From: a virus
Lineage: Duplodnaviria > Caudoviricetes
IMG/VR virus record: IMGVR_UViG_2900261899_000001
Span: 32,001 to 96,000 of that record
Reading direction: 5' to 3' (one strand)
DNA: 64,000 bases
Part shown: in pieces, positions 9,935-61,524 of the stretch
Position numbering within the stretch: the first letter of the stretch is position 1
Layout: the number at the start of each line of letters is the position of its first letter
The notes under the pieces: model-generated
The model's input: the letters and a program-made list of their open reading frames with translations, nothing else
Databases searched by the model: none
What the model was told of the DNA's origin: nothing
Translations under genes and position numbers: made by a program

Positions 9935-9936
9935 TC

Positions 9937-11946: not shown

Positions 11947-11951
11947 CCCCC

Positions 11952-42310: not shown

Positions 42311-42364
42311 GGAAGACCTTCAGATCGACTTGCTCCCGCAAGGGACCGGGAATACCGTCGTGAC

Positions 42365-42483
42365 TAGCGCGGCATGGCACGGCACCGTTCGGCGTGGCAT
42401 GGCGAGGCACGGCGCGGCGAGGCTGGGTCGGGTCTGGCGTGGCGTGGTAGGGGTGAAGAGGTCGGCGTGAGCCGGCCTTTTCC
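42365..42483 (+). ncRNA. GGY-NN pentamer array A (putative guide RNA)
   Basis: TAGC, 16 pentamers at 42371-42450 (15 begin GGC/GGT), then GGGTGAAGAG-GTCGGC-GTGA-GCCGGC-CTTTTCC. Confidence 0.8.
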
Positions 42484-42614
42484 GCTTTTTGGAGCTACCG
42501 ACCGTCGTCGCCCTGCCAGAGGGCCTGATCGGCCTGTGCGGGTCTGGACATGGTGGATCTCGCATGAACGACTGCGCGGGCGCGCGGGCGAATGCACTCG
42601 ATCCGAGCGCCGCT

Positions 42615-42705
42615 ACGCCTCGGTGTTGCCGGCGCCGGGTTCGAGGAAGGACCGCGTGCCGTTGGTGACGGCCGACCGTGTGCGCGGACTGCGTTGCTTG
42701 GTCAT
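42615..42705 (-). pseudogene. Gene remnant
   Basis: MTKQRSPHTRSAVTNGTRSFLEPGAGNTEA* resembles a common rhizobial phage N-terminus and stops early at TAG. Confidence 0.35.
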
Positions 42706-42926
42706 GGGTCGCGCCTTGGCGTCCCCACTGTCTCTGATGTGGTCGAGCGATCAGTCTTCGAATAGTTGATCGTATCAAGCAGGGCGGGCGGTGACTGATC
42801 GGGATTGGCAGTAAAGGCACGGCCCTGCGCCAAGGCCGAAGCAAGCAACTGGATATGGATGCCACGAGGTCTTTTGAACCGTCCAGATGCTGCTATTTTT
42901 TTCTCCAAATCGTCTGACATTTTCAC
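42702..42926 (-). CDS. Hypothetical low-GC protein
   Basis: 74-aa ORF. Confidence 0.4.
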   Translation of the reverse strand: MKMSDDLEKKIAASGRFKRPRGIHIQLLASALAQGRAFTANPDQSPPALLDTINYSKTDRSTTSETVGTPRRDP

Positions 42927-42931
42927 CTATC

Positions 42932-45130
42932 TTAACCAAAATTGCGGTCAACGAATTTGTTCGTTGCGCCTGAGTTGTCGATAATACCTCCGGTGACGAG
43001 GTTTCTGGCGCTATTCTCAGTCACCCAGAAGTAATCACCGCATCCAGAGTCTAAGCGAACGCCAAATCCCTGCTTGGCCCCAGGCTGAGAGAAGTCGACG
43101 TTGAACTTGTTGCGGCTGATGTGAAAATCGGCATTGCCAGAACCGCCCACGCGAACGCCGCCGCTGCCGTTAATCGAAATATTGCAACTTTCGATGTTGA
43201 AGTTTTTGTTGTTGTTGTTGACTGCAAAGCCAATGTTTCGGCTTGCGCCAATGTCGCAGCCTATGAACTTGAGGCCGTCAGTGCTGTCCATCTGCACGGC
43301 GTTGCCGCCATGGTTCCAAGACCAGCATCCGATGTACATGCTCTGTGCGATCTGCGAGAGCAGCATCCCCTCGTGCGACGTATCCCAGAATACGTTCGCA
43401 TAGCGGTTGTAGCCTGAGCACTGACCACGGGTGAGGCTCGGCGAGCCAATCGTCTTGGCATAGAGCCCGCCGATGAAATCGCCGTCGCTGAGGATGATGG
43501 CCTCGCAGGCCCCGACCTGTCGCAGAGAACCAAGGCTGAAGTCGTAATCAATTGAGCTGATGGTGCCGACGGCGCCTGATGTGTTGCCCGTCACCGTCGT
43601 GCCAGCGGCCAGCTGGTTCGGGATCAGCATTCGGTACTGCGATCCAGTGAGCTGGATGATGTTCAAGCCCGTGTAAGGCGAGCCGGAGATCGTCAGCCCC
43701 TCGCCGGCCTGGAATGTGCCGTTGACGCTTGAGAAGTTGATGGTGTCGCAGATTGAGGCAGTAACGAACTGCGAGAGGAACACGTCGTTTGAGTTCTCGA
43801 TGTAGACGGCGGTCTCTCGGCCGTCCGACACGCCGAAATCATAGCCACGGACGCCCGCACTGTTCTTGACTGATATGCCTCGGTAGGCGGTCGAGATGTT
43901 GATGTCGTTGAAGTAGCCCGACACCTGCATGTCGAGGGCAACGCCAGCGGTCGGGCGAACCGAGAGCGACACCGGCCCCATGTCGATCCCGGAGATGCGG
44001 GAGCCGGGAACGCCGGTGGTGCGGATGAAGTTGGTGGTTCCCGTCGACCAGCGCACGCGGGTGATCGCTCGGCCCCGGCCGACGAGGCTCTGCCCGCGGG
44101 TGGCCACCAGCGTACCGCCAGCCGCACGATACTCGCCGGCGCCCATCAGCCCGAGGCCATTGTTTACGAGGGCGTCGATCGCCTTCTGAGTGGCCGCGAT
44201 GCAGTCGGTCGTCGTGTTCTTGAAGCCGTGAAACCAATCGACTTCGCAGACCGCGAGCCCAGCGATGGAGCCACCGGCCGACAGGTCGAAGATCTGATAG
44301 GCACCTGCAGTCAGACCCGCCGTGAAGGTGACCGTGACGCCGTTGTCCGGCTTCAGCATCACGCCACGCGGGAAACGATAGTGAGCCGAGAGGGTGATGT
44401 TGGACGAAATCCGGATCGTGCCGGGCTTAAGTAGCCATTCCCCGAAGCCTTGAAGCGCATCGGCGAACGAAAGATTTGCGGCATCGTCGGCCGTACCATT
44501 AGCGACCAGATTATTGAGAACAGGCGCCTTGGCGGCCAGAGACGCGGCTGTCGCCGCAGCATCGGCTGCTCCAACGTCGCTGGCGATGAGATTTATTGAC
44601 GATCCGGATTTGCCATTGACCGTCGTCGGATTGCCTTGAGGCCCTTGCAGGCCCGCAGCGCCAGTGGCGCCTTGCGGTCCTTGCGCGCCCTGTGCTCCAG
44701 CCGCGCCGGCAGGCCCTCGAATTTGGCCGACGTTGTGCCAGTTGCCGCCGGGGCCGGCGTCGTTGCCGGAGGCGGTGTAGACGTAGCCGTCGCCGCTGGA
44801 ATAGCCGGTCCCGTTCGACGTCATCAGGTAGACGTCGCCAAGCGTGTTGCCGGACGACGGAAGGTCCGAGGGGGTAGCCCGCGATCCTTTGATCGTCGTT
44901 CCCGCGCCTTGGTCGCCCTTCGGGCCAGGGTCGCCCTTCGGGCCAGGGTTGCCCTGCTGGCCGGGGTTGCCGCGCTCGCCACGCTCGCCCTGCAGACCGC
45001 GTTCGCCCTGGCCACCGGGCAAACCGGGGGCACCGGCGCCCCCAGGGAGGCCGCGTAGGCCCGGGGCGCCGCCGCCGAGCACGACCTGAGGCACGACGCC
45101 CGCGGAGGACGCGCCCAACACGTACGGCAT
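42932..45130 (-). CDS. Tail fibre/spike: collagen repeats plus beta-helix domain
   Basis: G-X-Y runs, WHNVGQIRGPAG, pectate-lyase-like repeats, GC drops toward the C-terminus. Confidence 0.82.
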   Translation of the reverse strand: MPYVLGASSAGVVPQVVLGGGAPGLRGLPGGAGAPGLPGGQGERGLQGERGERGNPGQQGNPGPKGDPGPKGDQGAGTTIKGSRATPSDLPSSGNTLGDVYLMTSNGTGYSSGDGYVYTASGNDAGPGGNWHNVGQIRGPAGAAGAQGAQGPQGATGAAGLQGPQGNPTTVNGKSGSSINLIASDVGAADAAATAASLAAKAPVLNNLVANGTADDAANLSFADALQGFGEWLLKPGTIRISSNITLSAHYRFPRGVMLKPDNGVTVTFTAGLTAGAYQIFDLSAGGSIAGLAVCEVDWFHGFKNTTTDCIAATQKAIDALVNNGLGLMGAGEYRAAGGTLVATRGQSLVGRGRAITRVRWSTGTTNFIRTTGVPGSRISGIDMGPVSLSVRPTAGVALDMQVSGYFNDINISTAYRGISVKNSAGVRGYDFGVSDGRETAVYIENSNDVFLSQFVTASICDTINFSSVNGTFQAGEGLTISGSPYTGLNIIQLTGSQYRMLIPNQLAAGTTVTGNTSGAVGTISSIDYDFSLGSLRQVGACEAIILSDGDFIGGLYAKTIGSPSLTRGQCSGYNRYANVFWDTSHEGMLLSQIAQSMYIGCWSWNHGGNAVQMDSTDGLKFIGCDIGASRNIGFAVNNNNKNFNIESCNISINGSGGVRVGGSGNADFHISRNKFNVDFSQPGAKQGFGVRLDSGCGDYFWVTENSARNLVTGGIIDNSGATNKFVDRNFG

Positions 45131-45245
45131 GCCGGAACTCTCGAAGACAGGGGGAGGCGCGCGTGGAAAAGCCCGGGGCGATTGGGCCGGGACGCGCGGC
45201 TTGCGGTCGGGCAGAAGCTGGCCGTATGGACCGCCCGAGGGGCGG

Positions 45246-45905
45246 TCAGAGCAGGTAGACGACGGCCTCGACGAAGGTCAGCGGACCGTAATAAGCAACC
45301 TTGCGTCGGTCATCGCCGAACGCGAGGAGCTCGTAGACGTAGTCGCCCGGAAGCAGACGTCCTGATCCCATCGTTGTGTAGGGGACCATCAGACCGGGAG
45401 CGCCAGTTCCGTTGCCCTTCACGATGAGGGGATCGGAATTGTCCGTTGGGTCGGACAACGCCTCGAAGATCAGCCGTTGGATGGTGTCGGCGCGCCGGAC
45501 CTGCAGCACATAGCTGATGCCGGTGTCGTTGATCGTCGCGGGCGTCGGCTGCACCGCGAAGGCGTCGCCAACCCTGAACGGGGTCGAGCCCGGTGTGACC
45601 GTCAGGACGAGACCGCCGGCGGAGAGTGGTGCGCCGGCGTATCCCAGAGCCGTGACGGCGCCGTTGGGATCGGTGACCGTGATGCCGACGAGATTGTCGG
45701 TCGAGGTCACCACGACGGCGTGGCCGCCCAAGGGCGTGCGGGGTTCGACGCTCTGGACGCTGACGGACCCGTTGCCGGTGTTGCCGCTGCCGACAACGAC
45801 GCCCGCGGTGCCGGCTTGATATAGCGGAAAGCTGTCCGTCCAGTCGTCGTTGAGCGCGACGCGCAGGGGCTGGTAACGCGGCTGGATCGCCAGGATGTTC
45901 GTCAC
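45246..45905 (-). CDS. Tail-associated structural protein
   Basis: GNTGNG, PF.VGDAF, YVYELL. Confidence 0.65.
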   Translation of the reverse strand: MTNILAIQPRYQPLRVALNDDWTDSFPLYQAGTAGVVVGSGNTGNGSVSVQSVEPRTPLGGHAVVVTSTDNLVGITVTDPNGAVTALGYAGAPLSAGGLVLTVTPGSTPFRVGDAFAVQPTPATINDTGISYVLQVRRADTIQRLIFEALSDPTDNSDPLIVKGNGTGAPGLMVPYTTMGSGRLLPGDYVYELLAFGDDRRKVAYYGPLTFVEAVVYLL

Positions 45906-45914
45906 GGACCGGCC

Positions 45915-46349
45915 TCAGGCGACGAGTTCGTTGGCCCGGATCAGCAGCGCATCGACCTGCGCCGGGCTGTAACTGCGCGCCGCGATCATCGCTTGCGTCA
46001 GCGGGTCGACGCGACGGATCTCGGTGGCCAGATCCCAGTCCTCTTGGAGGTCGGGATTGGACGCGAGCGCTGCCTTTACCGCTGGCCATTCCGGCTCCGG
46101 AAACACGGCCAGCTCCCCGGTCTCGGCCAGGGCGCGTTTCAGTCCGAGCTTCGAGGCCGAGGTCGGCACGACGACAACGACGGGCGGCGGCGGTGGGGCC
46201 GCAAAGCCGTCATCGGTCGCAAGCCAGCCGATGGCGATGTCCGCCACGTGGGAGACGTCCCGGACGTCGAACAGGTCGTGCGGCCATGCGTCCTCGCCTT
46301 CGGACAGGGCGTGCACGATCCCGCTATTCACGAGCGCGAACAGAGCCAT
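45915..46349 (-). CDS. Tail fibre assembly-like protein
   Basis: IGW....GFAAPPPP; follows the fibre gene. Confidence 0.65.
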   Translation of the reverse strand: MALFALVNSGIVHALSEGEDAWPHDLFDVRDVSHVADIAIGWLATDDGFAAPPPPPVVVVVPTSASKLGLKRALAETGELAVFPEPEWPAVKAALASNPDLQEDWDLATEIRRVDPLTQAMIAARSYSPAQVDALLIRANELVA

Positions 46350-46359
46350 GCTTCAATCC

Positions 46360-48309: not shown

Positions 48310-48383
48310 CGCGGGACTTTCGGTCGGAGGATGTTCGGGATGCGCTGGGGCCGACCGTCAGCGGTCGGGCGAGCGGCGGCGCG

Positions 48384-49154: not shown

Positions 49155-49158
49155 GGTC

Positions 49159-50286: not shown

Positions 50287-50648
50287 CACGGTACCTCGAA
50301 GGACAGCGTCTGCTGCCGGCCGGTGGCGGCGTCGGCGTAGATGATCCGGACGTGGACGCCGTTCAGGATCGGCGTCACCACGATGACGGGGTCGGGGTCG
50401 CGGGCAACGGAGGCCTCGCGAAAGATTTGCGACCGGATCAGTGCTGACAGCTCATCGGCGTCGATCAGGCCACCGACGCGAAGCTGAACGCCGGCGCCGT
50501 ATCCGAGGTTCTGGATGTACGTCCCGGCCACCGTCAGCAGGCGGCGCAGGACGCGCTGGACGCCGCGCTGGGTGCCGTCGACGAGCAGCAGGTCGCCGGT
50601 CGGCCCGACGGAGAGGTCGGAGCCGATCATCAGGCTGAGATCAGGCAT
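50286..50648 (-). CDS. Baseplate gp46/gpW-like protein
   Basis: GDLLLVDG..QRVLRRLLT, YGAG. Confidence 0.8.
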   Translation of the reverse strand: MPDLSLMIGSDLSVGPTGDLLLVDGTQRGVQRVLRRLLTVAGTYIQNLGYGAGVQLRVGGLIDADELSALIRSQIFREASVARDPDPVIVVTPILNGVHVRIIYADAATGRQQTLSFEVP

Positions 50649-50675
50649 AGGTCCGACCGGGTCGTGGGAAGCGGC

Positions 50676-52342: not shown

Positions 52343-52346
52343 CGGT

Positions 52347-52562
52347 TCAGGCCCCGATCACGCCACTGGTCGTCTGGCCCTTCGGGGGCCGATCCGGCAG
52401 CACCAGCGTGACGACGCCGGTGAGGAAGGGGTCGCGCAGGCCGTTGAGGCGCGCGATGCGGGCCCAGAGGGTGTGGTCGCCGAGTTCGCGGGCGGCGATC
52501 TCGTACAGGTTGCCGCCGGAGACCGTGACGACACGGGCGTTGCGGCCGACCTGGATCTGCAC
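52347..52562 (-). CDS. LysM / tail X-like protein
   Basis: LYEIAARELGD..LWARIARLNGLRDP. Confidence 0.8.
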   Translation of the reverse strand: MQIQVGRNARVVTVSGGNLYEIAARELGDHTLWARIARLNGLRDPFLTGVVTLVLPDRPPKGQTTSGVIGA

Positions 52563-52566
52563 CGGG

Positions 52567-53325
52567 CTACCCGATCAAGGAGAGGTTCGCGGAGAGTCGA
52601 CCGACGCCGCCGCGCAGCGTGGTCAGGTTCGATTGAGCCTGGATCGCCGCGAGTGCGCCCGTGACGGAGGCCGCGAAGCCCGGCGCCAGGAGCGCGTTCG
52701 GGTCCGGCGCCGCTGCTGCGGTGATCGCGGCATCCCCGGCGGCGATCGCGGTGTCGAGCGTGGCGACAGCGACCGAGGCCGTGTCTTGCAGCGGCCCGAC
52801 CCGCGACAGCGGGATGTCGGCCAGACTGCCGACTGCGTTAACTGCCGAGAACAGGCCCGACATCGCATCGCCGACGAGGCCGCCGGCCAGGGCGGCCAAC
52901 GGAAGGGCCGAAGCGATGTCGGCGCCGATCAGGGAGCCGATGCTCGATCCGATGTCCTCAGCCGCCGAACCGCCGTCGTCGACGACGTAGCAGGTAATCC
53001 GATAAGGAAGATCGAATTCGCGCTGATAGTCGGCCTCGAACTCCTCGACGATGACCGTGAAGTAGAGGCCGCCCCACGACAGCGGGACCTGGGAGCCGCG
53101 CTTCGCCATCGCGTTGATGGCGAGCGCCCGGGCCTTGGCGTCTGCACCGCGGAACCGGCCCTCCCACTTCGCGTCGCAGAACTCGAAGCCCATCGCGTCG
53201 GGGACGCGCTTGCCCCCGATGAGGACGTTCTTGGCGATCCGCTGCTTGCCGCCGAACGGGATCTTCGACGGGACCTCATGGCCGCGCAGCGTGATGCCGC
53301 CGATCGAAACGGTGGAACTGGCCAT
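52567..53325 (-). CDS. Tail tube initiator-like protein
   Basis: EVPSKIPFGGKQ, W.GRF.G, LSWGG; downstream of tape measure. Confidence 0.75.
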   Translation of the reverse strand: MASSTVSIGGITLRGHEVPSKIPFGGKQRIAKNVLIGGKRVPDAMGFEFCDAKWEGRFRGADAKARALAINAMAKRGSQVPLSWGGLYFTVIVEEFEADYQREFDLPYRITCYVVDDGGSAAEDIGSSIGSLIGADIASALPLAALAGGLVGDAMSGLFSAVNAVGSLADIPLSRVGPLQDTASVAVATLDTAIAAGDAAITAAAAPDPNALLAPGFAASVTGALAAIQAQSNLTTLRGGVGRLSANLSLIG

Positions 53326-53520
53326 GGCCCCTCCCGAGGCGAGGGGTGGACGCAGAAACGGCAACGGCCCCGGCAGAAATCTGCGCGGGGCCGTTCGTAG
53401 GGTCCCTTATACGTCAAGGAACTCTTGGCGACTAGACGGAGGCGCAGCCATAACAGGCCACCGGCGCGCACATTGTAATAGCGCACGTGGTGCGCTATTT
53501 TAGGGATGGGAGGCGGGAAT

Positions 53521-53754
53521 GTGCCGACGTTAAAGCGCTTCGACCAATTCAAGATTTGCGTCTTCGCTGACGATCATCCGCCGCCGCATTTCCATGTGAT
53601 CGGGCGCGGGTTTAAGGCAACGATCTTGTTCGAGACGCTATCGCTTGATGTCGGAGAATGCCCCCGGAAGGTGTTCGCGGAGGCGGTGACTTGGGCCGCC
53701 GTGAATCGCGAAGCCCTCGAAGAAGCTTGGAGGAACCTCAATGAGCGATCGTGA
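53521..53754 (+). CDS. DUF4160 family (putative toxin)
   Basis: DHPPPHFHV. Confidence 0.85.
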   Translation: MPTLKRFDQFKICVFADDHPPPHFHVIGRGFKATILFETLSLDVGECPRKVFAEAVTWAAVNREALEEAWRNLNERS

Positions 53755-54496
53755 CATGATCCGCGCCGGGGATCCTATTCCGTCGATCGGGGCCGTAGAG
53801 GTTGGCAACGGTCCTTACGACGTCCTTATCACCTGGGCCGATGGTCATCGAGCCGGCCAGCAAATCCTCATCGACCTCGCCCCAGTGATCCTGACCTACA
53901 AGGTCTTCATTCCGTTGCGCGATGACCGCCGTCTTTTCGCAACCGTGCGCGTGGCCGAGTACGGCGAGGCCATCGAGTGGGGTGATAACGATGATCTGGC
54001 GGTCGCTGGGACGACGTTGGAGCGCCTTGCCAACGAAACGATGACCAATGTCGATTTTGCAGCATTTCTGAAGCGCAACAGGCTCACACTAGATGCCGCA
54101 GCTGGGCAGCTCGGGATCGGTCGTCGTCAGGTGTCATACTACGCCAAAGGGCGGGAGATTCCGAGATATATCTCCCTCGCTTGTAAATATATCGAAGAGC
54201 GCAAAGCAGTAGATGATATAAATAATTATTTATCTGCCGGCAACACGCTTACTAAGATAGGATTGCACAACTGTGTTATAACTGACGGGAATAACAACTT
54301 CGATTGCGTGGCTCAAGCTACCGCGGCCTGGGACAGTAATGTCGTGATTATCAAAGATGGGGGGGTGATAGAAGGCTATTATGTACCACCGGGTGAGAAA
54401 CCTGAAGTGATAGTTAAAGGCGGTACGATTAAGGTAGGTTCGGGAAATGTAACTGGCACAAGGCGTGCTAAATTAAATCTTGATAAAATTAGATAA
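53741..54496 (+). CDS. DUF2442 + HTH antitoxin with low-GC C-terminal extension
   Basis: PLRDD..FATVRV..G.AIEW; AAGQLGIGRRQVSYYAKG.EIPR. Confidence 0.8.
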   Translation: MSDRDMIRAGDPIPSIGAVEVGNGPYDVLITWADGHRAGQQILIDLAPVILTYKVFIPLRDDRRLFATVRVAEYGEAIEWGDNDDLAVAGTTLERLANETMTNVDFAAFLKRNRLTLDAAAGQLGIGRRQVSYYAKGREIPRYISLACKYIEERKAVDDINNYLSAGNTLTKIGLHNCVITDGNNNFDCVAQATAAWDSNVVIIKDGGVIEGYYVPPGEKPEVIVKGGTIKVGSGNVTGTRRAKLNLDKIR

Positions 54497-54631
54497 TAGC
54501 CATGACCGACCGATCTCTCACCGCCGGGCACCGCGATGATATTCTTCTACGCACCTTAGACGGCGATTAGAAAAGACTGAGACATTACCCATTTGGGGTA
54601 GGATGATATACTAGATTAGGATACCTCAATC

Positions 54632-54937
54632 GTGCAGCTTACAATTGAAGTGGGCGAACTTAAGGTTCTGGCGAGCGGTGTACTGCTTGTCGATTCCGGT
54701 CGAGATGTAAAGTTTACAATTGAAGGAAATGTGTTTGAGCTTATGATTGATAAAGATGGGCCGCCATATGAAAAGGTTGGCACAAATCATATTCGAGCCT
54801 ACTTTAACACTGATAAAATGGTCAGTACTAGTTCAATGATCGGCGATTATAATGGTAGGCCGTTAATGATCTCAATCCGTGTTCAGCAGCAAGGTACCCA
54901 CATTAGGCAGGTTTTTTATACACTGGGTCATCATTAA
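54632..54937 (+). CDS. Low-GC beta-rich hypothetical protein
   Basis: 101-aa ORF; TAATG coupling to next gene. Confidence 0.6.
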   Translation: MQLTIEVGELKVLASGVLLVDSGRDVKFTIEGNVFELMIDKDGPPYEKVGTNHIRAYFNTDKMVSTSSMIGDYNGRPLMISIRVQQQGTHIRQVFYTLGHH

Positions 54938-55239
54938 TGGCTGTCCGTCTAGATCTTCCGCCTGACAAAACTTTGGCAACCCGTGTAATTGAAACGGAAG
55001 CCGAGCACAATACGCGAAAACTTGAGCGCGGTTTAATGGGTTTGATCTTTGGTCTCGCCACCGAAAAACCCGGAAATATCGCTGGCTTTGCGCTGATAGC
55101 TTTCTGCCTCATGTTTGCGGGGGTTTTGATTTGGGGCACCGATAGCAGCAGTCTATCAAAGAAAGACGTACTTTCGCTTATAGGTGGTTTTATCACCTTA
55201 ACGCTCGGCTTCGTATTTGGTCGAACATCATCGTCTTAG
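54937..55239 (+). CDS. Low-GC small membrane protein
   Basis: Two TM segments; LGFVFG end. Confidence 0.65.
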   Translation: MAVRLDLPPDKTLATRVIETEAEHNTRKLERGLMGLIFGLATEKPGNIAGFALIAFCLMFAGVLIWGTDSSSLSKKDVLSLIGGFITLTLGFVFGRTSSS

Positions 55240-55276
55240 ATGTGTGGTGCAACGAAGTCATGGACATGAAGAAAAT

Positions 55277-55371
55277 GGAAAAGGCCGGCGCGAGCCAGCC
55301 CTTTCACCCTTGCCTCGCCTCAACAAACCCCGCCCCGCGGTACCCCGCCTTGGCCGGCCGTGCCTTAGCTA
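55277..55371 (-). ncRNA. GGY-NN pentamer array B (putative guide RNA)
   Basis: Minus strand: TAGC-TAA, 11 pentamers at 55364-55310 (8 GGY), then GGGTGAAAG-GGCTGGC-TCGC-GCCGGCC-TTTTCC. Confidence 0.78.
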
Positions 55372-55456
55372 GATCTCGAGCCTAGGATCGGTCCAGCGGC
55401 TGGGCAAGACAGAGGGTGTGTTTGTCCCTCCCGGTGTACGAGAGGGACGGCCGCCG

Positions 55457-57976
55457 TCAGGCTAGGACGCGACCGCCGTACCCTACCGGCGTTTTCAGCG
55501 TCGAATCGTCGAACGAACCGGTCCCGTTTCTCGTGTTCGCTTCGGCGACCTGATGGTGCGTCACGGACCGACCGACCGTGCGGCCGTCGAGATGCACCGA
55601 GCTGGCAACCTGGATCGGGGCGGAACGCCCCTTGTAGATCAGGGAGCTCGATTTGCCGGGTGTCGCACCGCCACCGCCACCGCCGCCGGACGCGCCGCTT
55701 CCGAGATCGGCGCCGCCCGCCGGTTTGGCGCTTGCGCTTCCGATCGCGGCACGAGCAGCAGCCGCTACCCCGCCGATCCAACCCGCAAGCGCGTTCAGCG
55801 GGCCGCCAGCGCCTTGCGCCGCTTGCCCCGCCTTCTGAGCGCCAGACGCAGCCTCATTGAGCGTGGAGACCGCACCAGCTGCCGTAGACGCGAGCCGCTG
55901 CTTGGCCGCTTCGATATTCTCCGTCGAAAGGCCCAGCCCTTCGGTGCCGATGTGACGCCGCGGGTTTTCACCACCGCCCGTCATGAATCCGTCGGGACCG
56001 CCGAACTCGAATGGCGTGGTACTTTTTCGGCGCTGCTCGGATAGAGTGTCGGCAAGTTTGCGAGCTGGCTCGCCTGCGATCTTATCCCACGGAAGCGTGA
56101 CGGCGGCGATGGTGACAGCCGCACCGGCACCGACAGCCAGCGCTGGAAGGCTGAGCGTGCCGACGGCGGCAATAGCTAGTGCTGCAATACCCGCAGCTGC
56201 CGCACCACCGACAACAGCGGCCGTGGCGCCCATCGCCGTCTCGGCTGCGACTGGATGCTTCTCTAGTGTGTTTGCCACGCCTCCAAGCGCTGCGTTCAAG
56301 CGGTTAAGGTTGTCGACAAGGTTTGGGATTGCTGGCTCCGAGAGTGCGGTCGCCACTGCGCCGCCCTGCGATTTGGTGCCCTGCAGAGCCGCATAGGGGT
56401 CGTCGCGCCTATAGGCCGTGGTATCGCCGGAAGTCTTATCGTACCCGGCGAAGTCTTTTTCGATCTTACTTTTTTGCTGCGCCAATTCGAACAAAAATCC
56501 GTAGGCGTTCTTGTCGGTAAAAATTTTACCGAGGGTACGAAGCAGATCGGTCTTGTCATCAGTATTGACGCCACCCGCTTTGAGCTTCGGAATGACGTTG
56601 TTGTAAAGCCATAGATCCGGGTCCTTGGCCCGGTCATAAGTTTTTCCGTCCAAGCCCACATCTGAAAATTGAGCACCCGGCTGGACTAACGTGTGTTTCT
56701 TGTTCCAAGTGACAGTTGGTTCTTGAAGAAGATTATATTTGTAGGCTTCAGTGAGCCCCGAGCCCAGCATACGCAAGCCACCGACACCCTTTGCCGCGAA
56801 GGTCGCGAACTGGGTACCGGCGCGCTGTCCAATTTCCTGCGAAAGCGCCGCGAAGGCGCCGTAGCGAAAGTGGTCGCTGGTCAGATTTAGCATCTGACCG
56901 CCGTTTTTCTGTGCGGTAAAGTAGTTCGATGGGTTGAGCTTGTCGCCGTACCAGAAGGCCAACCTCATCAGCGAGTTGGCGTGCTTCTTGACCCCCTCCG
57001 AGGTAATCTCGTTAGCTGTTTCAGCCGATTTCACGGCCGTGTAAATCTCGTTTACAGCGTTCTTAGCGCCGTGATTGCCGGCTTTGGCCTTCAGTGCCGA
57101 GAACTCTGGTAGCAATTCTGGCGCTTCGTGAATTGCTTTGTCGATGTCGCCAAGAATACCGCGGAGATCGTTGATGTGCTCGAAGATCTCGACAGGGGAT
57201 AGATTAGGAAATTGTTGCGAACCCTTATATGAAAGTTCCTTGGCATGATCGATCTGCGCTGGGCTAGCTCCGGTCTGCCGCATGCCGAGTTCAATGTGGC
57301 GCATATCGACGCCGGTCTCGATGACCTCAGAGAGCGTATGGACCCCGCCGGAGACCCCAATGACGCTTGCAAGTGCCGAGCCTTCATGGCCGACGAGACC
57401 ATGCGTTCCGTGACTGCGCCGGCCATGCCCCCTGCCACGCGTGGCGCGCCCGGCACCGGTGCCAGCGCCCCCGGCCCCGCCGCCACCCCGGACGGGCGTT
57501 GGCAAGTTCACATTGCTCGCGGCTGACTGCAGGCGACGCATGGCGCCGGCCGCCGAATTGATCCGGCTCGTCCAACCCGAGATCGACTGCGTGACACCCC
57601 GCGCCGCTGAAGCGACGCCTTGGGTCTCGCGGCGCATGACGCGCATCTCGGCGATGGGCTTGCCGATGGCGCTGGCCCAGCGCTGCATTTCACGGTCCAG
57701 ACCGTTGCCACCCTTCAAGCCAGACATGGCACGCGAGATCCGCGCGACCTCGCGCTCGATCTTTTGGCCGGCGGAGGAGGACTTCGACAGTTCGCGGTTC
57801 AGTTGGCCGGCGGCGGACGCAGCGCGGTTCAGGGGCGAGACCCAGCGACCGAACGATTTCTCAACGGATTTGGTTTTAGAGTCGACATCGCTCAGGGTCT
57901 TGAGCAGGCGCGTCATCTCGGGCACGAGATTGCCCGCGAGCGTCATGCTCGTCTGGATGCGATACACGTCGCTCAC
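55457..57976 (-). CDS. Tail tape measure protein
   Basis: 839 aa, helical and Ala/Gly-rich, VHLDGRTVG near end; position in tail operon. Confidence 0.85.
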   Translation of the reverse strand: MSDVYRIQTSMTLAGNLVPEMTRLLKTLSDVDSKTKSVEKSFGRWVSPLNRAASAAGQLNRELSKSSSAGQKIEREVARISRAMSGLKGGNGLDREMQRWASAIGKPIAEMRVMRRETQGVASAARGVTQSISGWTSRINSAAGAMRRLQSAASNVNLPTPVRGGGGAGGAGTGAGRATRGRGHGRRSHGTHGLVGHEGSALASVIGVSGGVHTLSEVIETGVDMRHIELGMRQTGASPAQIDHAKELSYKGSQQFPNLSPVEIFEHINDLRGILGDIDKAIHEAPELLPEFSALKAKAGNHGAKNAVNEIYTAVKSAETANEITSEGVKKHANSLMRLAFWYGDKLNPSNYFTAQKNGGQMLNLTSDHFRYGAFAALSQEIGQRAGTQFATFAAKGVGGLRMLGSGLTEAYKYNLLQEPTVTWNKKHTLVQPGAQFSDVGLDGKTYDRAKDPDLWLYNNVIPKLKAGGVNTDDKTDLLRTLGKIFTDKNAYGFLFELAQQKSKIEKDFAGYDKTSGDTTAYRRDDPYAALQGTKSQGGAVATALSEPAIPNLVDNLNRLNAALGGVANTLEKHPVAAETAMGATAAVVGGAAAAGIAALAIAAVGTLSLPALAVGAGAAVTIAAVTLPWDKIAGEPARKLADTLSEQRRKSTTPFEFGGPDGFMTGGGENPRRHIGTEGLGLSTENIEAAKQRLASTAAGAVSTLNEAASGAQKAGQAAQGAGGPLNALAGWIGGVAAAARAAIGSASAKPAGGADLGSGASGGGGGGGATPGKSSSLIYKGRSAPIQVASSVHLDGRTVGRSVTHHQVAEANTRNGTGSFDDSTLKTPVGYGGRVLA

Positions 57977-57997
57977 GGCGTACCCCGGGGAGAAGTC

Positions 57998-58444
57998 ATG
58001 AAGGGGTTATGGCTCGCCGTTCTTGCGGCGATCATACTGGCGCCCCCAGCGGCCGCGCAGACCCAGCAGGGCTGGGCGCAATGCCGTACCGTTGCGGACA
58101 GCCTGGAGCGGCTGAAATGCTTCGATGGTCTTGGGCCCGCGCCGGTGGCGCAGGTGGGTGCCTACGAGAAAATGACCTTGATCGATTGGAAGACCGACAA
58201 GGCATCGCTACAAGGAAAAAAGGTCGAGGTCGAAGGTCTCGCCATGCCGTTTGCCGGCGGAGCGCTGCTGTCGATCCAAGCGGGCGATGTCAGTCCGGTC
58301 TTCCTTGATGTCGAGCGCGTGCCGCGGGATCAACGCAGGCGGCTTCTAGGCTGCTCGCCTATGTGCCGATTGTCGGTGCAGGGTAGCGGTGGCACGGTAC
58401 AATATCAGCAGGGTATCATCGCCGATACTTTGAGTTTCCGCTAA
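57998..58444 (+). CDS. Secreted protein (moron)
   Basis: Signal peptide, C...D..ERL.CFD motif, OB-fold-like tail. Confidence 0.7.
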   Translation: MKGLWLAVLAAIILAPPAAAQTQQGWAQCRTVADSLERLKCFDGLGPAPVAQVGAYEKMTLIDWKTDKASLQGKKVEVEGLAMPFAGGALLSIQAGDVSPVFLDVERVPRDQRRRLLGCSPMCRLSVQGSGGTVQYQQGIIADTLSFR

Positions 58445-58521
58445 TTTATTAGTCAGACGACTAACATTAAAGTCTTAGCGGATCACCCGATGCCCTGGCT
58501 GCGGCAATGGACGGAAATGAA

Positions 58522-59028
58522 TTATCGAGGCGGAAACAACAAAAGCGTCAAAAAGGCCGTTTTGCTATCTTCGCTAGCGGCCTCAAGCCCGGTCAACGCC
58601 GACTTTGCAATAAGAATAAAGTGCTCGACTTCTGACACAGTTAAGACGTGTGATGGGTCATAATCGGCTAGCATACGCTGTTCATATAGGTCAATAAATG
58701 CGTCGGCGTACCCGGTTATTTGCGCATCAAATCCGCCTGCCGGCCAATACCTGCTGTATTTCTGGCTTGGATTCTGCTTTTTTATTTCAACACAAAGAGA
58801 CCTCATTTTGCCGTGATCTATTGATCTGTAAGCCAAGCTATAAAGGCTGCTGCCTCTTTTATCCTCTCCGACGGACTGGTCGGCGGCCGCCTTCAGACCG
58901 GCATGGAACACGGCATAATAGGTAGCCGATACTGCTCTACATCTGTCAGCCAAGCGCGGTCGTTCCTGCCCAGGCAGCACAGCGAGCAGGCGTTCGGCCT
59001 GCTCAACCAAATGTGCGGGTTCGATCAC
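58522..59028 (-). CDS. HEPN (UPF0332-like) protein
   Basis: RAVSATYYAVFH, RMLADYDP. Confidence 0.75.
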   Translation of the reverse strand: MIEPAHLVEQAERLLAVLPGQERPRLADRCRAVSATYYAVFHAGLKAAADQSVGEDKRGSSLYSLAYRSIDHGKMRSLCVEIKKQNPSQKYSRYWPAGGFDAQITGYADAFIDLYEQRMLADYDPSHVLTVSEVEHFILIAKSALTGLEAASEDSKTAFLTLLLFPPR

Positions 59029-59317
59029 GCTGAAGCTCTATCCAATCTTCCATTCGGGCAAAGCTAACTAGTGGCACACGGTCCTCACCGGCCCTGTGTA
59101 ACTCGCTTTTCATCCTACTGATGATATTGAGCAGTTGTGTTCCTCCAAAGTCGTCGGCGTTTGCCTCTGGGTACACAATAGTTATTTTGAGCGCATCGGA
59201 CCCATCGGATGTTTGAGCGCCCGCTATTGCTGTCGATATTGGGACAAACTTACCCAAAACATCCCGAGATGTTTCCTTCGCCAGTCTTGATATTTCACCT
59301 AAATCTAGCCGCATCAC
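59003..59317 (-). CDS. HEPN partner (MNT-like)
   Basis: Overlaps the HEPN gene; DGSDALKITIV, P.VSF. Confidence 0.55.
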   Translation of the reverse strand: MMRLDLGEISRLAKETSRDVLGKFVPISTAIAGAQTSDGSDALKITIVYPEANADDFGGTQLLNIISRMKSELHRAGEDRVPLVSFARMEDWIELQRDRTRTFG

Positions 59318-59325
59318 CGCATGCC

Positions 59326-59580
59326 TCAGCCCTGTATTCCCAGGACGGGCGCCTTCAGCCGGACGCCCGGCCCCCCGCCGTTCTCTGCGATGAACTCGAG
59401 CCCAGCCTCCGCAAGCGCTTTCTCAACCTTTGCCAGATTGTCGGTGATAGCCTTGGGAACCCCCTCGCTCTCCTCCATCCGTTTGATTGTTGCGGGGGAC
59501 ACCCCAGAGGTATCCGCTAAATCCCTTACGGACCACCGAAGGTAGCCGCGTGCCATCCGAATCTGGGCCCCGGTGACCAT
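59326..59580 (-). CDS. XRE HTH repressor
   Basis: TGAQIRMARGYLRWSVRDLA..SGVS..TIKRME, ENGGGPGVRL. Confidence 0.88.
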   Translation of the reverse strand: MVTGAQIRMARGYLRWSVRDLADTSGVSPATIKRMEESEGVPKAITDNLAKVEKALAEAGLEFIAENGGGPGVRLKAPVLGIQG

Positions 59581-59611
59581 AAAAGCTAAATGACCCATAT
59601 TTGGTCTAGCG

Positions 59612-59659
59612 TGAGCTAAATTGGTTGACACGGGCGCCTCCATGAGCCAATTTAGCTCA
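59612..59659. promoter_or_regulatory. Operator pair and promoter of the cassette leading to HNH + RAMP-like gene
   Basis: TGAGCTAAATTGGTTGA (59612-59628) and inverted near-copy TGAGCCAATTTAGCTCA (59643-59659); TTGACA 59625-59630. Confidence 0.65.
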
Positions 59660-60051
59660 TGGCCGCTGCAAATGAAAGCGACCTTACCACTAAGAGGATC
59701 GCGCCGATGCCCGTGAATGCAAAGATCCCCACCCCCCTGCGCGCAAACATCATGGCCAGGGCCTGGGAGTTATTCCGCAAGCGCTACAATTACCCCCGCA
59801 CCCCGTTCCGTTCGATCGGCCGCGCATGTTTCGCGTCGGCTCTAAAAGCCGCGTGGGCGGAAGCCCGTGAGACTGTTCGTCTTGTCGGTTTCGGGGCCGA
59901 TGCCCTGAGGCGCTCTATCGAGGCACTTTCCTCTCCGGCTCACGCGGTAGGCCTTTCCTCAAGCTACGCGCTTGGCCCTCAGGCCGCGATGGAGCGGTAT
60001 CAACAAAAGCTCGCTTTAACGGCCGCCCTGAACTTCGCGATTGCGGCTTGA
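59659..60051 (+). CDS. Hypothetical protein
   Basis: IMARAW...FASALKAAWAEA. Confidence 0.6.
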   Translation: MAAANESDLTTKRIAPMPVNAKIPTPLRANIMARAWELFRKRYNYPRTPFRSIGRACFASALKAAWAEARETVRLVGFGADALRRSIEALSSPAHAVGLSSSYALGPQAAMERYQQKLALTAALNFAIAA

Positions 60052-60062
60052 GGGAGGGAGCT

Positions 60063-60560
60063 ATGCAAAATCGGAGAGCAATCCTCACGGCCCTTATTGC
60101 GGTACCGCTGACTGGGCCGTTGTGTGCGGGTCAGCCTCATCTTGACGCGGCCCTGCTCGACCTCGGCAGGCGCTTCGATGCCGCCGTGGCGGCGCACAAA
60201 GCCCACGTCCGGGCCTACTTCGCGGCTGACGAGGCCCATACCCAGGCGCTCCAGGCCGCTAAGTCGGCTGGGCGGTTCAAGGGGCTCGACGCTGAAGCCT
60301 ACGCAGCGCTCCACTCGCAGCTAATTGAGCCGTTCAACGCGGCGCTAGAGAGGGACGACGAACTCCACGACGCCTGCGGCAAGCTGGGCGAGCAAATCAT
60401 CGCGATCCAACCCAAGACTCTGGATGGAATCGCTGTTCTTGCCCGTGTCTGCCAGTTCGAATCGCGGCAGGCCTGGGAAGCGCCGAAGAGCCGCGAGTAC
60501 GATGAGGACGTCCTCGTTGCCCTCGTCGACGGCATCTTGGCCGTGGCCGCTACGGCGTGA
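60063..60560 (+). CDS. Hypothetical helical protein
   Basis: GGAG RBS; DAALLDLG, PKTLDGI.V.AR. Confidence 0.65.
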   Translation: MQNRRAILTALIAVPLTGPLCAGQPHLDAALLDLGRRFDAAVAAHKAHVRAYFAADEAHTQALQAAKSAGRFKGLDAEAYAALHSQLIEPFNAALERDDELHDACGKLGEQIIAIQPKTLDGIAVLARVCQFESRQAWEAPKSREYDEDVLVALVDGILAVAATA

Positions 60561-61000
60561 CCTACGAGGAATACCTTGCATCCCCACGATGGGCCGAGCT
60601 GCGCCGGCTGAGGCTAGCCCTCGACGGATTCCGCTGCCGGGGCTGCGATACCGCCGACAATCTTGAGGTTCACCACCGGCGCTACGGCACCCCGCTGGGC
60701 AGCGAGACGGTCGACGACCTGACGACGCTCTGTGGCGGCCCCGAGGGCTGCCACCACGCGATCACCACCATCATCCGCCGCCGCCTGTACGCGACCCGTC
60801 AGTATGACGTGACCGCAGTCGCTCGGCTGGCCCCCGGCAATCTGGAGAAGAACGATGTCCCAGGACTACGAGCGTTTAAGATTTCGGCTCACCGGCGTGT
60901 CGCCCCTGGTCATGCACAACGGTCGCTTGGCGAACCCGCTGGACTCGTTTGCGAAGGCGCTGAAGGCGGTCTCGGGAAAGCGCGGCAAGACGGACGCTGA
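60557..61000 (+). CDS. HNH endonuclease
   Basis: YEEYLASPRW, CRGC...LEVHHRRY...LTTLC....CH. Confidence 0.85.
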   Translation: MTYEEYLASPRWAELRRLRLALDGFRCRGCDTADNLEVHHRRYGTPLGSETVDDLTTLCGGPEGCHHAITTIIRRRLYATRQYDVTAVARLAPGNLEKNDVPGLRAFKISAHRRVAPGHAQRSLGEPAGLVCEGAEGGLGKARQDGR

Positions 61001-61430
61001 CTTCGAGGAGATGGCCCGTATCGAGTTCCTGGGCGGCCTCTATGTCGGCGACGATGGTCCTTGCATCCCCGGCGAATTGATCGAAGCGGTCCTGATCGCG
61101 GCGGCCAAAAAGAACAAGCGCGGCATGCAGGCCAAGGCCGGCATCCTTTCGGACGGCAACCACCGGGTCGAGTACCACGGCCCCAGAGGGGCAGAGGAGC
61201 TGTGGGCGGACGACCGCTTCCGCCTCGTTGCCGGCGTTCGTGTCGGACAGGCCCGTGTGATGCGGACCCGCCCGATCTTTCGGGAGTGGTCGTCAGAAAT
61301 CTTCGTTGACTTCCTGCCGGGTCAATTGAACCGGGCGGACGTCGCGGGAATGGTTAGAACCGCAGGCACCATCGTCGGCATCGGCGATTGGAGGCCGCGG
61401 TTTGGAAGGTTCACAGTGGAGACGCTGTGA
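60855..61430 (+). CDS. Stand-alone RAMP/Cas7-like protein
   Basis: LTGVSPLVMH start, PCIPGELIEAVL, Gly-rich C-terminal loop GIGDWRPRFGRF; GGAG RBS at 60844. Confidence 0.7.
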   Translation: MSQDYERLRFRLTGVSPLVMHNGRLANPLDSFAKALKAVSGKRGKTDADFEEMARIEFLGGLYVGDDGPCIPGELIEAVLIAAAKKNKRGMQAKAGILSDGNHRVEYHGPRGAEELWADDRFRLVAGVRVGQARVMRTRPIFREWSSEIFVDFLPGQLNRADVAGMVRTAGTIVGIGDWRPRFGRFTVETL

Positions 61431-61521
61431 TAGCCCGGTAGGGCAAGGCGGGTCGCGGCATGCCTCGGCAAGGCGTGGTTCGGTAGGGGTGAAAAGGGCC
61501 GGCTTTCGCCGGCCCTTTTCC
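61431..61521 (+). ncRNA. GGY-NN pentamer array C (putative guide RNA) with terminator hairpin
   Basis: TAGC, 10 pentamers at 61437-61486 (8 GGY), then GGGTGAAAAGGGCCGGC-TTTC-GCCGGCCCTTTTCC. Confidence 0.8.
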
Positions 61522-61524
61522 ACA

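What the first reader, a model, noticed from the sequence alone, without database searches (positions are those of the whole stretch)
42311..61524. Each pentamer array borders a variable region: possible RNA-guided homing or allele exclusion
Seen: A sits beside a low-GC patch (42.5-42.9 kb) in the fibre cluster. B closes the 53.5-55.2 kb cassette (TA pair plus two low-GC genes). C closes the 58.0-61.4 kb cassette. A and B match the conserved gene right next to them. Established: free-standing phage homing endonucleases cut a conserved neighbouring gene in relatives while their own allele is resistant. Inference: one RAMP+HNH pair with dispersed guides could spread several cargo loci during co-infection, or block tail-gene expression in competitors.
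Basis: inference. Interest (0 to 1): 0.8.

Follow-up and report, generated by a model that had tools for sequence, protein, structure and literature searches.

The report
Prophage VIPR system with dispersed guide RNAs
The three pentamer arrays are guide-RNA genes of a recently described phage RNA-guided DNA-recognition system (VIPR), and two of them sit beside the tail genes that their code reads.

Summary
Three ~100-nt elements (A 42366-42490 +, B 55272-55375 -, C 61432-61525 +) each carry 10-17 GGYNN pentamers and a conserved hairpin tail. Only four such arrays exist in the 4.6-Mb genome.

Array C directly follows gene 60855-61430. That gene encodes a 191-aa single-domain RAMP: the model has pLDDT 92 and its best fold matches are Csm3/Cmr4/Cas7. 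It is 37% identical to the characterised Vipr protein of phage SUSP1. A small HNH gene overlaps its start. This is a VIPR system, described in three 2026 bioRxiv preprints, so the kind is already known.

I decoded the arrays with the published "1-nt skip" rule. Array A reads the first codons of the gene 52 nt away (23/34 positions). Array B reads the 3' end of the tape-measure gene 130 nt away (19/24). Both are in wobble register and are top scores genome-wide. Array-less relatives match better, up to 27/34 and 21/24.

A and B lie in DNA that those relatives lack at the same junctions. The resident tape-measure site carries a rare CGN-to-AGA switch.

Best reading: silencing, or HNH cutting, of related phages' tail genes, with the resident alleles protected by mismatches. 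Homing is geometrically plausible but untested. C's target is unknown.

The parts
42366..42490 (+). vrRNA A. It has 16-17 GGYNN units (42371-42455), then a tail hairpin and terminator (42455-42482) and a T run. It is antisense to the tail operon and 19 kb from vipr.
42264..42314 (-). Near-cognate site of vrRNA A. It runs from 4 nt upstream of the ATG to codon 16 of gene 41714-42310. It matches 23/34 NN positions, with the skipped base at the codon wobble position.
   Evidence: homologous sites in relatives score 21-27/34
41714..42310 (-). 198-aa tail-cluster gene of unknown family, downstream of the fibre gene. Its 5' end is read by vrRNA A.
42491..42931 (.). Extra lower-GC spacer between the fibre gene and vrRNA A. 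Relatives L121 and L122 have 76 and 112 nt between the two genes, against 620 nt here.
42932..45130 (-). Tail fibre gene with a collagen-like N-terminal part.
53506..55239 (+). Cargo cassette of four + strand genes: DUF4160/DhiT-like, a 251-aa unknown, a weak DUF6864 match and a 100-aa unknown. GC falls to 0.46. The cassette is absent from relative G286.
55272..55375 (-). vrRNA B. It has 11-12 GGYNN units (55305-55364) and a tail hairpin and terminator (55278-55305). It starts about 80 nt downstream of the tape-measure stop and is 6 kb from vipr, on the opposite strand.
55503..55538 (-). Near-cognate site of vrRNA B, 44 nt before the tape-measure stop codon. It matches 19/24 and is wobble-registered. 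It includes the gene's only AGA codon, where relatives have CGC.
55457..57976 (-). Tape-measure-like gene (839 aa).
58009..60560 (.). Lower-GC cassette upstream of the HNH gene. It holds a weak HEPN match with a small upstream ORF, an HTH regulator (59326-59643 -) and two unknown + strand genes.
60557..61000 (+). HNH accessory gene (vap-like). It overlaps vipr by 146 nt in another frame.
60855..61430 (+). vipr: a 191-aa single-RRM RAMP protein, phrog_4652.
61432..61525 (+). vrRNA C. It has 10-11 GGYNN units (61437-61486) and a tail hairpin. It lies directly after vipr and converges on gene 61525-61962.
61525..61962 (-). Tail-completion/Neck1-like gene that flanks the VIPR cassette.

Best explanation
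This is a VIPR (Viral Interference Programmable Repeat) system carried by a prophage. Best protein hits name Methylobacterium, so that is the likely host.

Components:
- Gene 60855-61430 encodes Vipr, a small ancestral-type RAMP.
- Gene 60557-61000 encodes an HNH accessory protein.
- Arrays A, B and C are vrRNA genes. Each has 10-17 GGYNN repeats and ends in a conserved hairpin tail that doubles as a terminator.

Published mechanism, not tested here: Vipr protomers polymerise along the GGY motifs. They present the NN dinucleotides, which read double-stranded DNA while skipping every third base, usually the codon wobble base. Binding silences transcription.

Shown here in silico: A reads the first 16 codons of the tail gene beside it, and B reads the 3' end of the tape-measure gene beside it. 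The resident alleles match at 68% and 79%. Homologous alleles of array-less prophages in other species of the genus match better.

Inferred: the lysogen or phage uses A and B to silence tail genes of related competing phages, or to cut them through the HNH protein. Its own alleles escape through mismatches. Placing each guide next to its immune allele keeps weapon and antidote linked. C's target is unknown.

The confidence given (0.6) is for this whole reading, including the competitor-targeting step. That the locus is a VIPR system I put at about 0.93.
For: Protein:
- The AlphaFold2 model has pLDDT 92.3 and pTM 0.85.
- Foldseek against PDB gives 31 hits at E<=0.001, listed as Csm3, Cmr4, Cas7 and Cas6 chains with TM about 0.45-0.53.
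- The protein is 37% identical to the SUSP1 homologue, E 6.9e-34. That gene lies at NC_028808.2 28495-29055, with arrays upstream and downstream on the same strand, as the preprint describes.
- At least 1112 homologues were found, none with a Pfam family, and the names shown were all 'hypothetical protein'. The family is phrog_4652, function unknown.

Arrays go with the gene:
- 65 of 79 loci from genome contigs hold at least one array by the first caller. All arrays but one are on the gene's strand.
- A second caller finds 113 arrays in 63 loci, 111 of them on the gene's strand.
- This holds in low-GC Bacteroidetes, Chloroflexi and archaeal contigs, and in phages HY02 and LESphi2.

HNH: it lies directly upstream in 56 of 81 sources.

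Tail: a 12-15-bp hairpin forms in all three elements.

Decoding:
- The cis sites are genome-wide top scores in wobble register.
- At all 12 loci homologous to gene 41714-42310, found in 11 of 145 other genomes of the genus, A's best site is the homologous one. It scores 21-27/34, above the 22-24 maxima of 10 unit-shuffled guides over the whole genome.
- B's pattern with at most 3 mismatches hits 2 of 145 other genomes and 0 controls. Both hits are the homologous tape-measure site, at 21/24.

Self-escape: the resident site has AGA where three relatives have CGC. AGA is 1 of 47 Arg codons in that gene and 2 of 248 in 15 tail genes.

Literature:
- 10.64898/2026.04.26.720920: Results, Discussion and Methods sections 20, 26 and 27 read.
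- 10.64898/2026.10.15.759431: abstract and sections 8, 9 and 26 read. It covers solo vrRNAs, lower self-match scores and wobble alignment.
- 10.64898/2026.04.26.720927: abstract only.
Against: - No expression data. No sequencing run was listed.
- No perfect or near-perfect natural target was found. Exact sub-patterns of A, B and C gave 0 hits in IMG/VR. Those of A and B gave 0 hits in the metagenome contigs.
- A's best match is 27/34 (79%) with all 17 units, or 26/32 (81%) with 16 units. This is at the edge of the preprint's 80% threshold.
- The resident A allele (23/34) is not the worst. Three array-less loci score 21 and two score 23.
- Only 4 tape-measure homologues were found in the genus. 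One scores 15/24, and the fourth gave 16/24 at a site I did not show to be homologous.
- C has no target above chance.
- A close relative (G306) has a vrRNA that matches its own prophage's tape-measure-like gene at 18/20, or 19/22 with an eleventh unit counted. That is the only hit in 146 genomes. This suits self-regulation at least as well as competitor targeting.
- The preprint places nuclease-type VIPRs mostly in defence islands, not in prophage tail modules.
- The type tables are in supplements that I could not open.
Confidence: 0.6

Rival explanations
1. RNA-guided homing. Vipr-vrRNA brings the HNH nuclease to the array-less allele of a co-infecting relative. Repair from the resident genome then copies the guide gene and its neighbouring cargo into the competitor.
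For: - The geometry is that of a free-standing homing element. Each dispersed guide lies 52-130 nt from its near-cognate site.
- Each guide lies in extra DNA. B and its 2.1-kb cassette are absent in G286, where the flanking genes abut. A sits in a 620-nt spacer against 76 and 112 nt in L121 and L122.
- Several array-less alleles match better than the resident one.
- An HNH gene is co-conserved with vipr in 56 of 81 sources.
- The VIPR cassette sits at different junctions in the window and in G306.
Against: - No cleavage activity is shown for any HNH-type VIPR in the text I read. Only silencing was demonstrated there.
- The word 'homing' has 0 occurrences in the main text of 720920.
- Array presence correlates only weakly with target state.
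- The array-less relatives are distant, at 30-64% protein identity, so they are not the real competitors.
- Morons with their own terminators also accumulate at such junctions without any homing.
Confidence: 0.15
2. Self-regulation. The dispersed vrRNAs bind the prophage's own tail genes and hold late genes off in lysogeny, or time their expression. They would not be aimed at competitors.
For: - The best genome-wide sites of A and B are in cis.
- In G306 the vrRNA next to vipr matches its own tape-measure-like gene at 18/20 to 19/22, in wobble register. That is the only hit at 2 mismatches or fewer in 146 genomes.
Against: - The resident matches of A (68%) and B (79%) are below the 80% that the preprint uses for natural targets.
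- The resident allele carries a rare synonymous AGA that lowers the match.
- Both preprints report that self-matches are avoided.
Confidence: 0.12
3. A and B are decoy or relic solo vrRNAs. They would soak up a rival's Vipr, or be decaying copies with no present target.
For: - Solo vrRNAs that redirect Vipr to decoy sites are described in satellites (10.64898/2026.10.15.759431, abstract and sections 8 and 9).
- B and C hold degenerate units, with 3 and 2 units lacking GG.
- No match of 90% or better was found anywhere.
Against: - A has 16 of 17 intact GG units.
- All three keep the same intact tail hairpin.
- The codes of A and B are clearly related to a specific gene family in wobble register, which a relic or a host-repeat decoy would not be.
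Confidence: 0.08
4. The arrays are not guide RNAs. They would be G-rich terminator-associated DNA repeats, for example protein-binding iterons, G-quadruplex or R-loop sequences at moron boundaries.
For: - Each array abuts a bidirectional-looking terminator hairpin at a cassette boundary.
- Rfam has no match in the window.
Against: - The arrays are tied to one protein family across phyla, on that gene's strand, whatever the GC content.
- Homologous arrays in SUSP1 are reported as ~100-nt RNAs that co-purify with Vipr (720920, Results).
- The variable dinucleotides decode to neighbouring genes in codon register.
Confidence: 0.02

Closest known systems
VIPR systems, type II exemplar of Escherichia phage SUSP1 (bioRxiv 10.64898/2026.04.26.720920)
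   Same: - The Vipr proteins are homologous (37% identity, E 6.9e-34).
- The vrRNAs have GGY/NN pentamer repeats of 10-17 units and a structured 3' tail, on the gene's strand.
- The code reads coding DNA with the skipped base at the wobble position.
- The system is phage-borne.
   Different: - The accessory gene here is an HNH, upstream of vipr and overlapping it. In SUSP1 it is a predicted DNA-binding vap1 downstream.
- The tail here is a simple A/U-flanked hairpin and terminator. The SUSP1 clade is reported to have a pseudoknot.
- Only one vrRNA lies at the locus. Two more are 6 and 19 kb away inside the tail module, one on the other strand.
Nuclease-type VIPR systems (types III-V in the same preprint; an HNH Vap is shown in its Fig. 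S21 legend)
   Same: An HNH-domain accessory protein and a single vrRNA next to vipr.
   Different: [quoted passage not shown] This one lies in a prophage tail module, and a second copy lies next to an integrase on contig C2.
- I could not assign the type, because the type tables are in supplements that were closed.
Solo or orphan vrRNAs (bioRxiv 10.64898/2026.10.15.759431)
   Same: - vrRNA genes stand apart from vipr.
- Self-match is lower than non-self match.
- Targets are wobble-aligned.
   Different: - Those are on VIPR-null phages or satellites, at the former VIPR locus or in satellites. They are predicted to hit vipr, other vrRNAs, satellites or host repeats.
- Here the phage keeps vipr. 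The extra guides are scattered in the structural module and read the structural gene immediately beside them.
Class 1 CRISPR-Cas backbone proteins (Csm3/Cmr4/Cas7)
   Same: RAMP/RRM fold with an N-terminal strand motif and a C-terminal glycine-rich loop. They also form protein filaments on a guide RNA.
   Different: - There is no CRISPR repeat-spacer array.
- The period is 5 nt with sequence-specific GGY contacts, against 6 nt.
- Target pairing is noncontiguous.
- The protein is a single small one.
Free-standing phage HNH homing endonucleases, and TnpB/IscB guide-adjacent-to-target logic (both recalled from general knowledge; no paper was read for them)
   Same: A nuclease-associated element is inserted next to a conserved gene. 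The insert-free allele carries the recognised site and the resident allele is mismatched.
   Different: - Here the specificity would come from a separate RNA gene acting with trans-encoded proteins.
- No cleavage or biased inheritance is shown.

Membership tests
VIPR system | Vipr protein: a small (~20 kDa) single-RRM RAMP with a G-loop | tested here: met
   191 aa. The AlphaFold2 model has pLDDT 92.3. The Foldseek PDB hits listed are Csm3, Cmr4, Cas7 and Cas6, with 31 at E<=0.001. The C-terminal glycine-rich motif is invariant in 20 aligned homologues.
VIPR system | Sequence homology to an experimentally characterised Vipr (SUSP1) | tested here: met
   Translated search of NC_028808.2: E 6.9e-34, 37% identity over residues 7-190. 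Arrays flank that gene on its own strand. The accession is taken from 10.64898/2026.10.15.759431, section 29.
VIPR system | vrRNA of 9-16 tandem YNNGG repeats, with conserved GGY and hypervariable NN | tested here: met
   A has 16-17 units, B 11-12 and C 10-11. Close relatives with 80-83% identical Vipr have quite different NN series. Across the related loci, 113 arrays hold 9-33 units.
VIPR system | Conserved structured 3' tail after the repeats | tested here: met
   The same tail box and a 12-15-bp hairpin occur in A, B and C. It is a hairpin, not the pseudoknot reported for the SUSP1 clade.
VIPR system | Adjacent accessory (vap) gene | tested here: met
   An HNH gene lies directly upstream in 56 of 81 sources. 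The HNH motif is aligned, with PHROG HNH families.
VIPR system | NN code matches natural DNA targets by the 1-nt skip rule, at 80% or more, with the skip at the wobble position | tested here: inconclusive
   B matches 21/24 (87.5%) in two relatives. A matches 79-81% depending on unit boundaries. Both are in wobble register. C has nothing above chance. No exact sub-pattern hit was found in IMG/VR or metagenomes.
VIPR system | vrRNAs are expressed, processed to ~100 nt and bound by Vipr | not testable with these tools
   No sequencing run was listed.
VIPR type III (HNH vap, one vrRNA) | Placement in the published Vipr phylogeny and vap cluster | not testable with these tools
   The type tables and trees are in supplementary data, which were closed. 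Only the Fig. S21 legend, which mentions HNH, was seen.
CRISPR-Cas | Repeat-spacer array with identical direct repeats of about 25-40 nt | tested here: not met
   Tandem Repeats Finder shows no such array in the window. The arrays are 5-nt units without spacers.
Homing endonuclease element | The insert-free allele carries the recognition site next to the insertion point, and the resident allele is mismatched | tested here: inconclusive
   The geometry fits. But resident and array-less match scores overlap: 23 against 21-27 of 34, and 19 against 15-21 of 24.
Homing endonuclease element | Site-specific cleavage and biased inheritance | not testable with these tools
   This needs biochemistry and crosses.

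The most novel reading that the evidence does not exclude
In HNH-type VIPR prophages, guide-RNA genes themselves are mobile. Each vrRNA gene, with adjacent cargo, sits at the edge of the gene it reads and carries a resistant allele next to it. It spreads into related phages by Vipr-guided HNH cutting of the sensitive allele, followed by recombinational repair. This would be RNA-guided homing in which only the guide needs to move. The same linkage would act as a poison-antidote pair that polices recombination in phage tail modules.
Probability: 0.15. Interest if true: 0.85.

Novelty: new member of a known kind. Interest (0 to 1): 0.5.

Why it matters
VIPR was described only in 2026 preprints and was worked out in E. 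coli and Pseudomonas phages. This window adds a high-GC alphaproteobacterial prophage with an HNH-type accessory gene.

It also adds something that the text I could read does not describe. A VIPR-positive phage scatters extra guide genes through its structural module. Each guide lies within about 50-130 nt of the resident, mismatched copy of the very gene it reads, at a junction where extra DNA is inserted.

If general, this gives three things:
- A simple way to predict targets, by looking next door to the guide.
- A rationale for weapon-antidote linkage in mosaic phage genomes.
- A concrete and testable route to RNA-guided homing.

The rare CGN-to-AGA switch shows how a phage may escape a wobble-blind guide without changing its protein.

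Tried and rejected
- Rfam gathering scan of the window: 0 families.
- ARAGORN reported only an implausible 586-nt permuted tmRNA at 3611-4196. I take it as a false call.
- Megablast of 40-64 kb against phage records: no match.
- The loose tail pattern hit 44 of 201 genomes of the family. In the 29 non-own loci fetched, of 48 non-own places, none had a pentamer run upstream. I treat these as chance hits.
- TRAP-like or CsrA-sponge RNA, rut site, G-quadruplex and pac/cos-site readings were considered before the protein link was found. I dropped them once the RAMP fold and the VIPR papers explained the arrays.
- Skip rules of 0 and 2 nt gave nothing above shuffles in the own genome. Skip 3 only recovers the arrays themselves, which served as a control.
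- Contiguous similarity between the arrays and the rest of the window: only 10-12-nt chance words.
- Cis matches for 113 arrays within +-6 kb of vipr in 63 loci: 4 at the lowest possible p (0.01) and 8 more at p<=0.1. This is close to the null except for L035.
- C against the C2 element: 17/20, or 21/26 with tail units. The skipped base is codon position 1 and the score is barely above shuffles, so it is not accepted.
- Exact sub-pattern scans: 0 hits in IMG/VR for A, B and C, and 0 in metagenome contigs for A and B.
- Sequencing runs: none was listed.
- PADLOC: no defence family for the cassette genes, beyond weak HTH matches.
Full report
**What is there.** The window is high-GC, about 0.66-0.70. 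Each is a run of pentamers with GG, mostly GGC or GGT, in fixed phase. Each then has a conserved tail box and a GC-rich hairpin flanked by an A-run and a T-run.

The tail pattern occurs 3 times in the window against 0.01 expected. It occurs 3 times in the whole 4.64-Mb genome with 0 control hits.

A phase-locked detector (GG in at least 9 of 12 successive pentamers, both strands) finds only four loci in the genome. They are A, B, C and one on contig C2. Rfam has no family for them.

All three elements fold with a 12-15-bp terminal hairpin. The terminator scan flags those of A and B but not that of C.

**The link to a protein.**
- C begins two bases after the stop of gene 60855-61430 (P0001, 191 aa).
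- The fourth array, on contig C2, follows a 42%-identical paralogue (E 2e-52). That paralogue sits behind an integrase and a small HNH gene.
- P0001 has no Pfam, NCBIfam or PADLOC family. It belongs to phrog_4652, of unknown function, at E 1e-52.
- It has at least 1112 homologues. The names shown for them were all 'hypothetical protein'.
- Its AlphaFold2 model is confident, with pLDDT 92.3 and pTM 0.85.
- The Foldseek PDB hits listed are CRISPR RAMPs: Csm3, Cmr4, type VII Cas7 and Cas6. There are 31 hits at E<=0.001, with TM about 0.45-0.53.

**Comparative evidence.**
- I fetched 79 related loci from one-genome-per-species contigs.
- In 65 of them my first caller finds at least one pentamer array. 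All arrays but one are on the gene's strand, and they lie directly downstream of it, upstream of it, or both.
- A stricter caller gives 113 arrays in 63 loci, 111 of them on the gene's strand, with 9-33 units each.
- The pattern holds in contigs of 37-46% GC and in an archaeal contig. Base composition therefore does not explain it.
- An HNH gene lies directly upstream in 56 of 81 sources. In one clade it overlaps the RAMP gene by about 130-160 nt. In another it stops just before it.
- A translated search of phage records finds the protein in 136 records. They are mostly Felix-O1-like coliphages and Salmonella phages, plus Pseudomonas, Mycobacterium and Gordonia phages.
- Phages HY02 and LESphi2 show the arrays next to the gene.

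**What it is called.** A full-text search led to bioRxiv 10.64898/2026.04.26.720920. I read its Results, Discussion and Methods sections 20, 26 and 27. It describes VIPR systems as follows.
- A ~20-kDa ancestral RAMP, Vipr.
- An accessory vap gene.
- vrRNAs of 9-16 YNNGG repeats with a structured 3' tail.
- The NN dinucleotides read double-stranded DNA while skipping one base per unit, usually the codon wobble base.
- Binding silences competing phages and satellites.
- There are seven types. Types III to V carry predicted nucleases or helicases, and an HNH Vap is shown in a figure legend.

A companion preprint, 10.64898/2026.04.26.720927, reports cryo-EM filaments. I saw only its abstract. A third, 10.64898/2026.10.15.759431, describes solo or orphan vrRNAs, lower self-match than non-self match, and wobble alignment. 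I read its abstract and sections 8, 9 and 26, plus passages.

P0001 is 37% identical (E 6.9e-34) to the gene at 28495-29055 of SUSP1, the phage used in those experiments. That gene is flanked by arrays on its own strand, as described. The window therefore holds a VIPR system, so the kind is known.

**Decoding the three guides.** In register, A has 16-17 units, B 11-12 and C 10-11. I replaced each GGY by one wildcard and scanned both strands of the whole genome. Unit-order shuffles served as controls, and skip lengths 0 to 3 were compared. Skip 3 recovers the arrays themselves, which checks the code. Skips 0 and 2 give nothing above shuffles.

With skip 1 the results are these.
- A reaches 23/34 at three places among 9.26 million positions. 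One of them is window 42264-42314 (-), 52 nt from the array. It covers the start codon and first 16 codons of gene 41714-42310.
- B's unique best site scores 19/24 at 55503-55538 (-). This is 130 nt from the array and 44 nt before the stop of the tape-measure-like gene.
- In both cases the skipped base is the wobble base.
- The number of such scores expected within +-500 nt is 6.5e-4 for A and 2.2e-4 for B.
- There is no contiguous similarity.

**Relatives.**
- The 198-aa gene has homologues in 11 of 145 other genomes of the genus, at 12 loci. In every one, A's best site is the homologous one.
- Those sites score 21-27 of 34: 7 higher than the resident 23, 2 equal and 3 lower. Four score 26 or 27, above the 22-24 maxima of the 10 shuffled guides over the whole genome. 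None has an array within 1.5 kb.
- B's pattern with at most 3 mismatches hits 2 of 145 genomes and 0 controls. Both hits are the homologous tape-measure site, at 21/24.
- A third homologue scores 15/24 at that site. In the fourth the best score was 16/24, at a site I did not show to be homologous.
- At the Arg position where the guide has CG and three relatives have CGC, the resident gene has AGA. AGA is 1 of 47 Arg codons in that gene and 2 of 248 in 15 tail genes. This is a synonymous change at a non-wobble base, and it lowers the match.

**Variable regions.**
- In G286 the tape-measure homologue is followed at once by the homologues of 52567-53364 and 52347-52562. So 53365-55456, with four + strand genes at GC down to 0.46 and array B, is an insertion right after the site that B reads.
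- Upstream of the 198-aa gene, L121 and L122 have 76- and 112-nt spacers. The window has 620 nt, holding A and a lower-GC patch.
- The VIPR cassette lies between the tail-completion and tape-measure genes here. In G306 it lies at a different junction.
- Vipr is present in 8 of 146 genomes of the genus.
- G221 also has an array 8 kb from vipr.

**What remains open.**
- C has no target above chance.
- No exact sub-pattern of A, B or C occurs in IMG/VR, and none of A or B occurs in the metagenome contigs.
- In G306 the vrRNA next to vipr matches its own prophage's tape-measure-like gene at 18/20 (19/22 with an eleventh unit), in wobble register. That is the only hit at 2 mismatches or fewer in 146 genomes. 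Self-regulation therefore cannot be dismissed.
- Across 113 arrays, cis matches within +-6 kb are otherwise near the null.
- Expression, Vipr binding, HNH activity and HNH-Vipr contact are all untested.
- The supplements that hold the type tables, target lists and solo-vrRNA tables were closed. I cannot say whether dispersed in-phage guides next to their own target gene are already recorded there.
- In the main text of 720920, 'homing' and 'orphan' have 0 occurrences. In 759431, 'adjacent' has 2 occurrences, neither of which bears on this.

**Verdict.** The RNA-guided reading, with a RAMP-HNH pair and dispersed guides aimed at competitors' tail genes, is largely right. It corresponds to a system published months earlier. 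The homing mechanism is a reasonable but untested extension.

Noticed in passing
G000 contig C2:132600-133500 (locus L033 about 7172-10100): A second, minimal VIPR locus lies in the same genome. The order is a 602-aa tyrosine-recombinase-like ORF, a small HNH gene, a Vipr paralogue (42% identity) and one array of about 9 units with a 1-nt phase slip. An AT-rich stretch and an 889-aa ORF follow.
   Followed up: partly
window 60855-61000, and loci L034-L062, L069, L073, L075, L086: The HNH ORF overlaps the first ~48 codons of vipr in another frame by about 130-160 nt. This is conserved across a clade that includes a 50%-GC contig. Another clade ends the HNH gene just before vipr. It could be a real dual-coding stretch or a frameshift fusion; this is not resolved.
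   Followed up: partly
locus L035 / G306:C162, array about 20576-20630 of the fetched region and site 15452-15484: A related Methylobacterium prophage has a vrRNA next to vipr whose code matches its own tape-measure-like gene 5 kb away, at 18/20 to 19/22 in wobble register. This is above the 80% threshold under which the preprint reports no self-targets.
   Followed up: partly
window 8400-30000: The + strand block encodes RecE-like and RecT-like proteins, a 930-aa DNA methyltransferase, ParA-like and ParB-like proteins and a replication protein. The element may be a plasmid-prophage, or the window may hold two adjoining elements.
   Followed up: no
window 58522-59317 (-) and 53506-53754 (+): Possible toxin-antitoxin cargo. 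There is a weak HEPN match with a small upstream overlapping ORF, and a DUF4160/DhiT-like toxin match below NCBIfam's cut-off.
   Followed up: partly
window 3611-4196 (+): ARAGORN calls a 586-nt permuted tmRNA with an odd tag peptide inside a region of high-GC ORFs. It is probably a false positive.
   Followed up: no
locus L110 (archaeal contig) 6429-6594 and L111 975-1324: These are very long arrays of 33 units and of 19-23 units, in low-GC archaeal and Chloroflexi contigs. That is well beyond the 9-16 units given in the preprint. They may be several vrRNAs in tandem.
   Followed up: no
G221:C3, fetched region 11905-11974 (+): Another dispersed array with its own hairpin lies 8 kb upstream of vipr in a related prophage. 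No significant cis match was found for it.
   Followed up: partly
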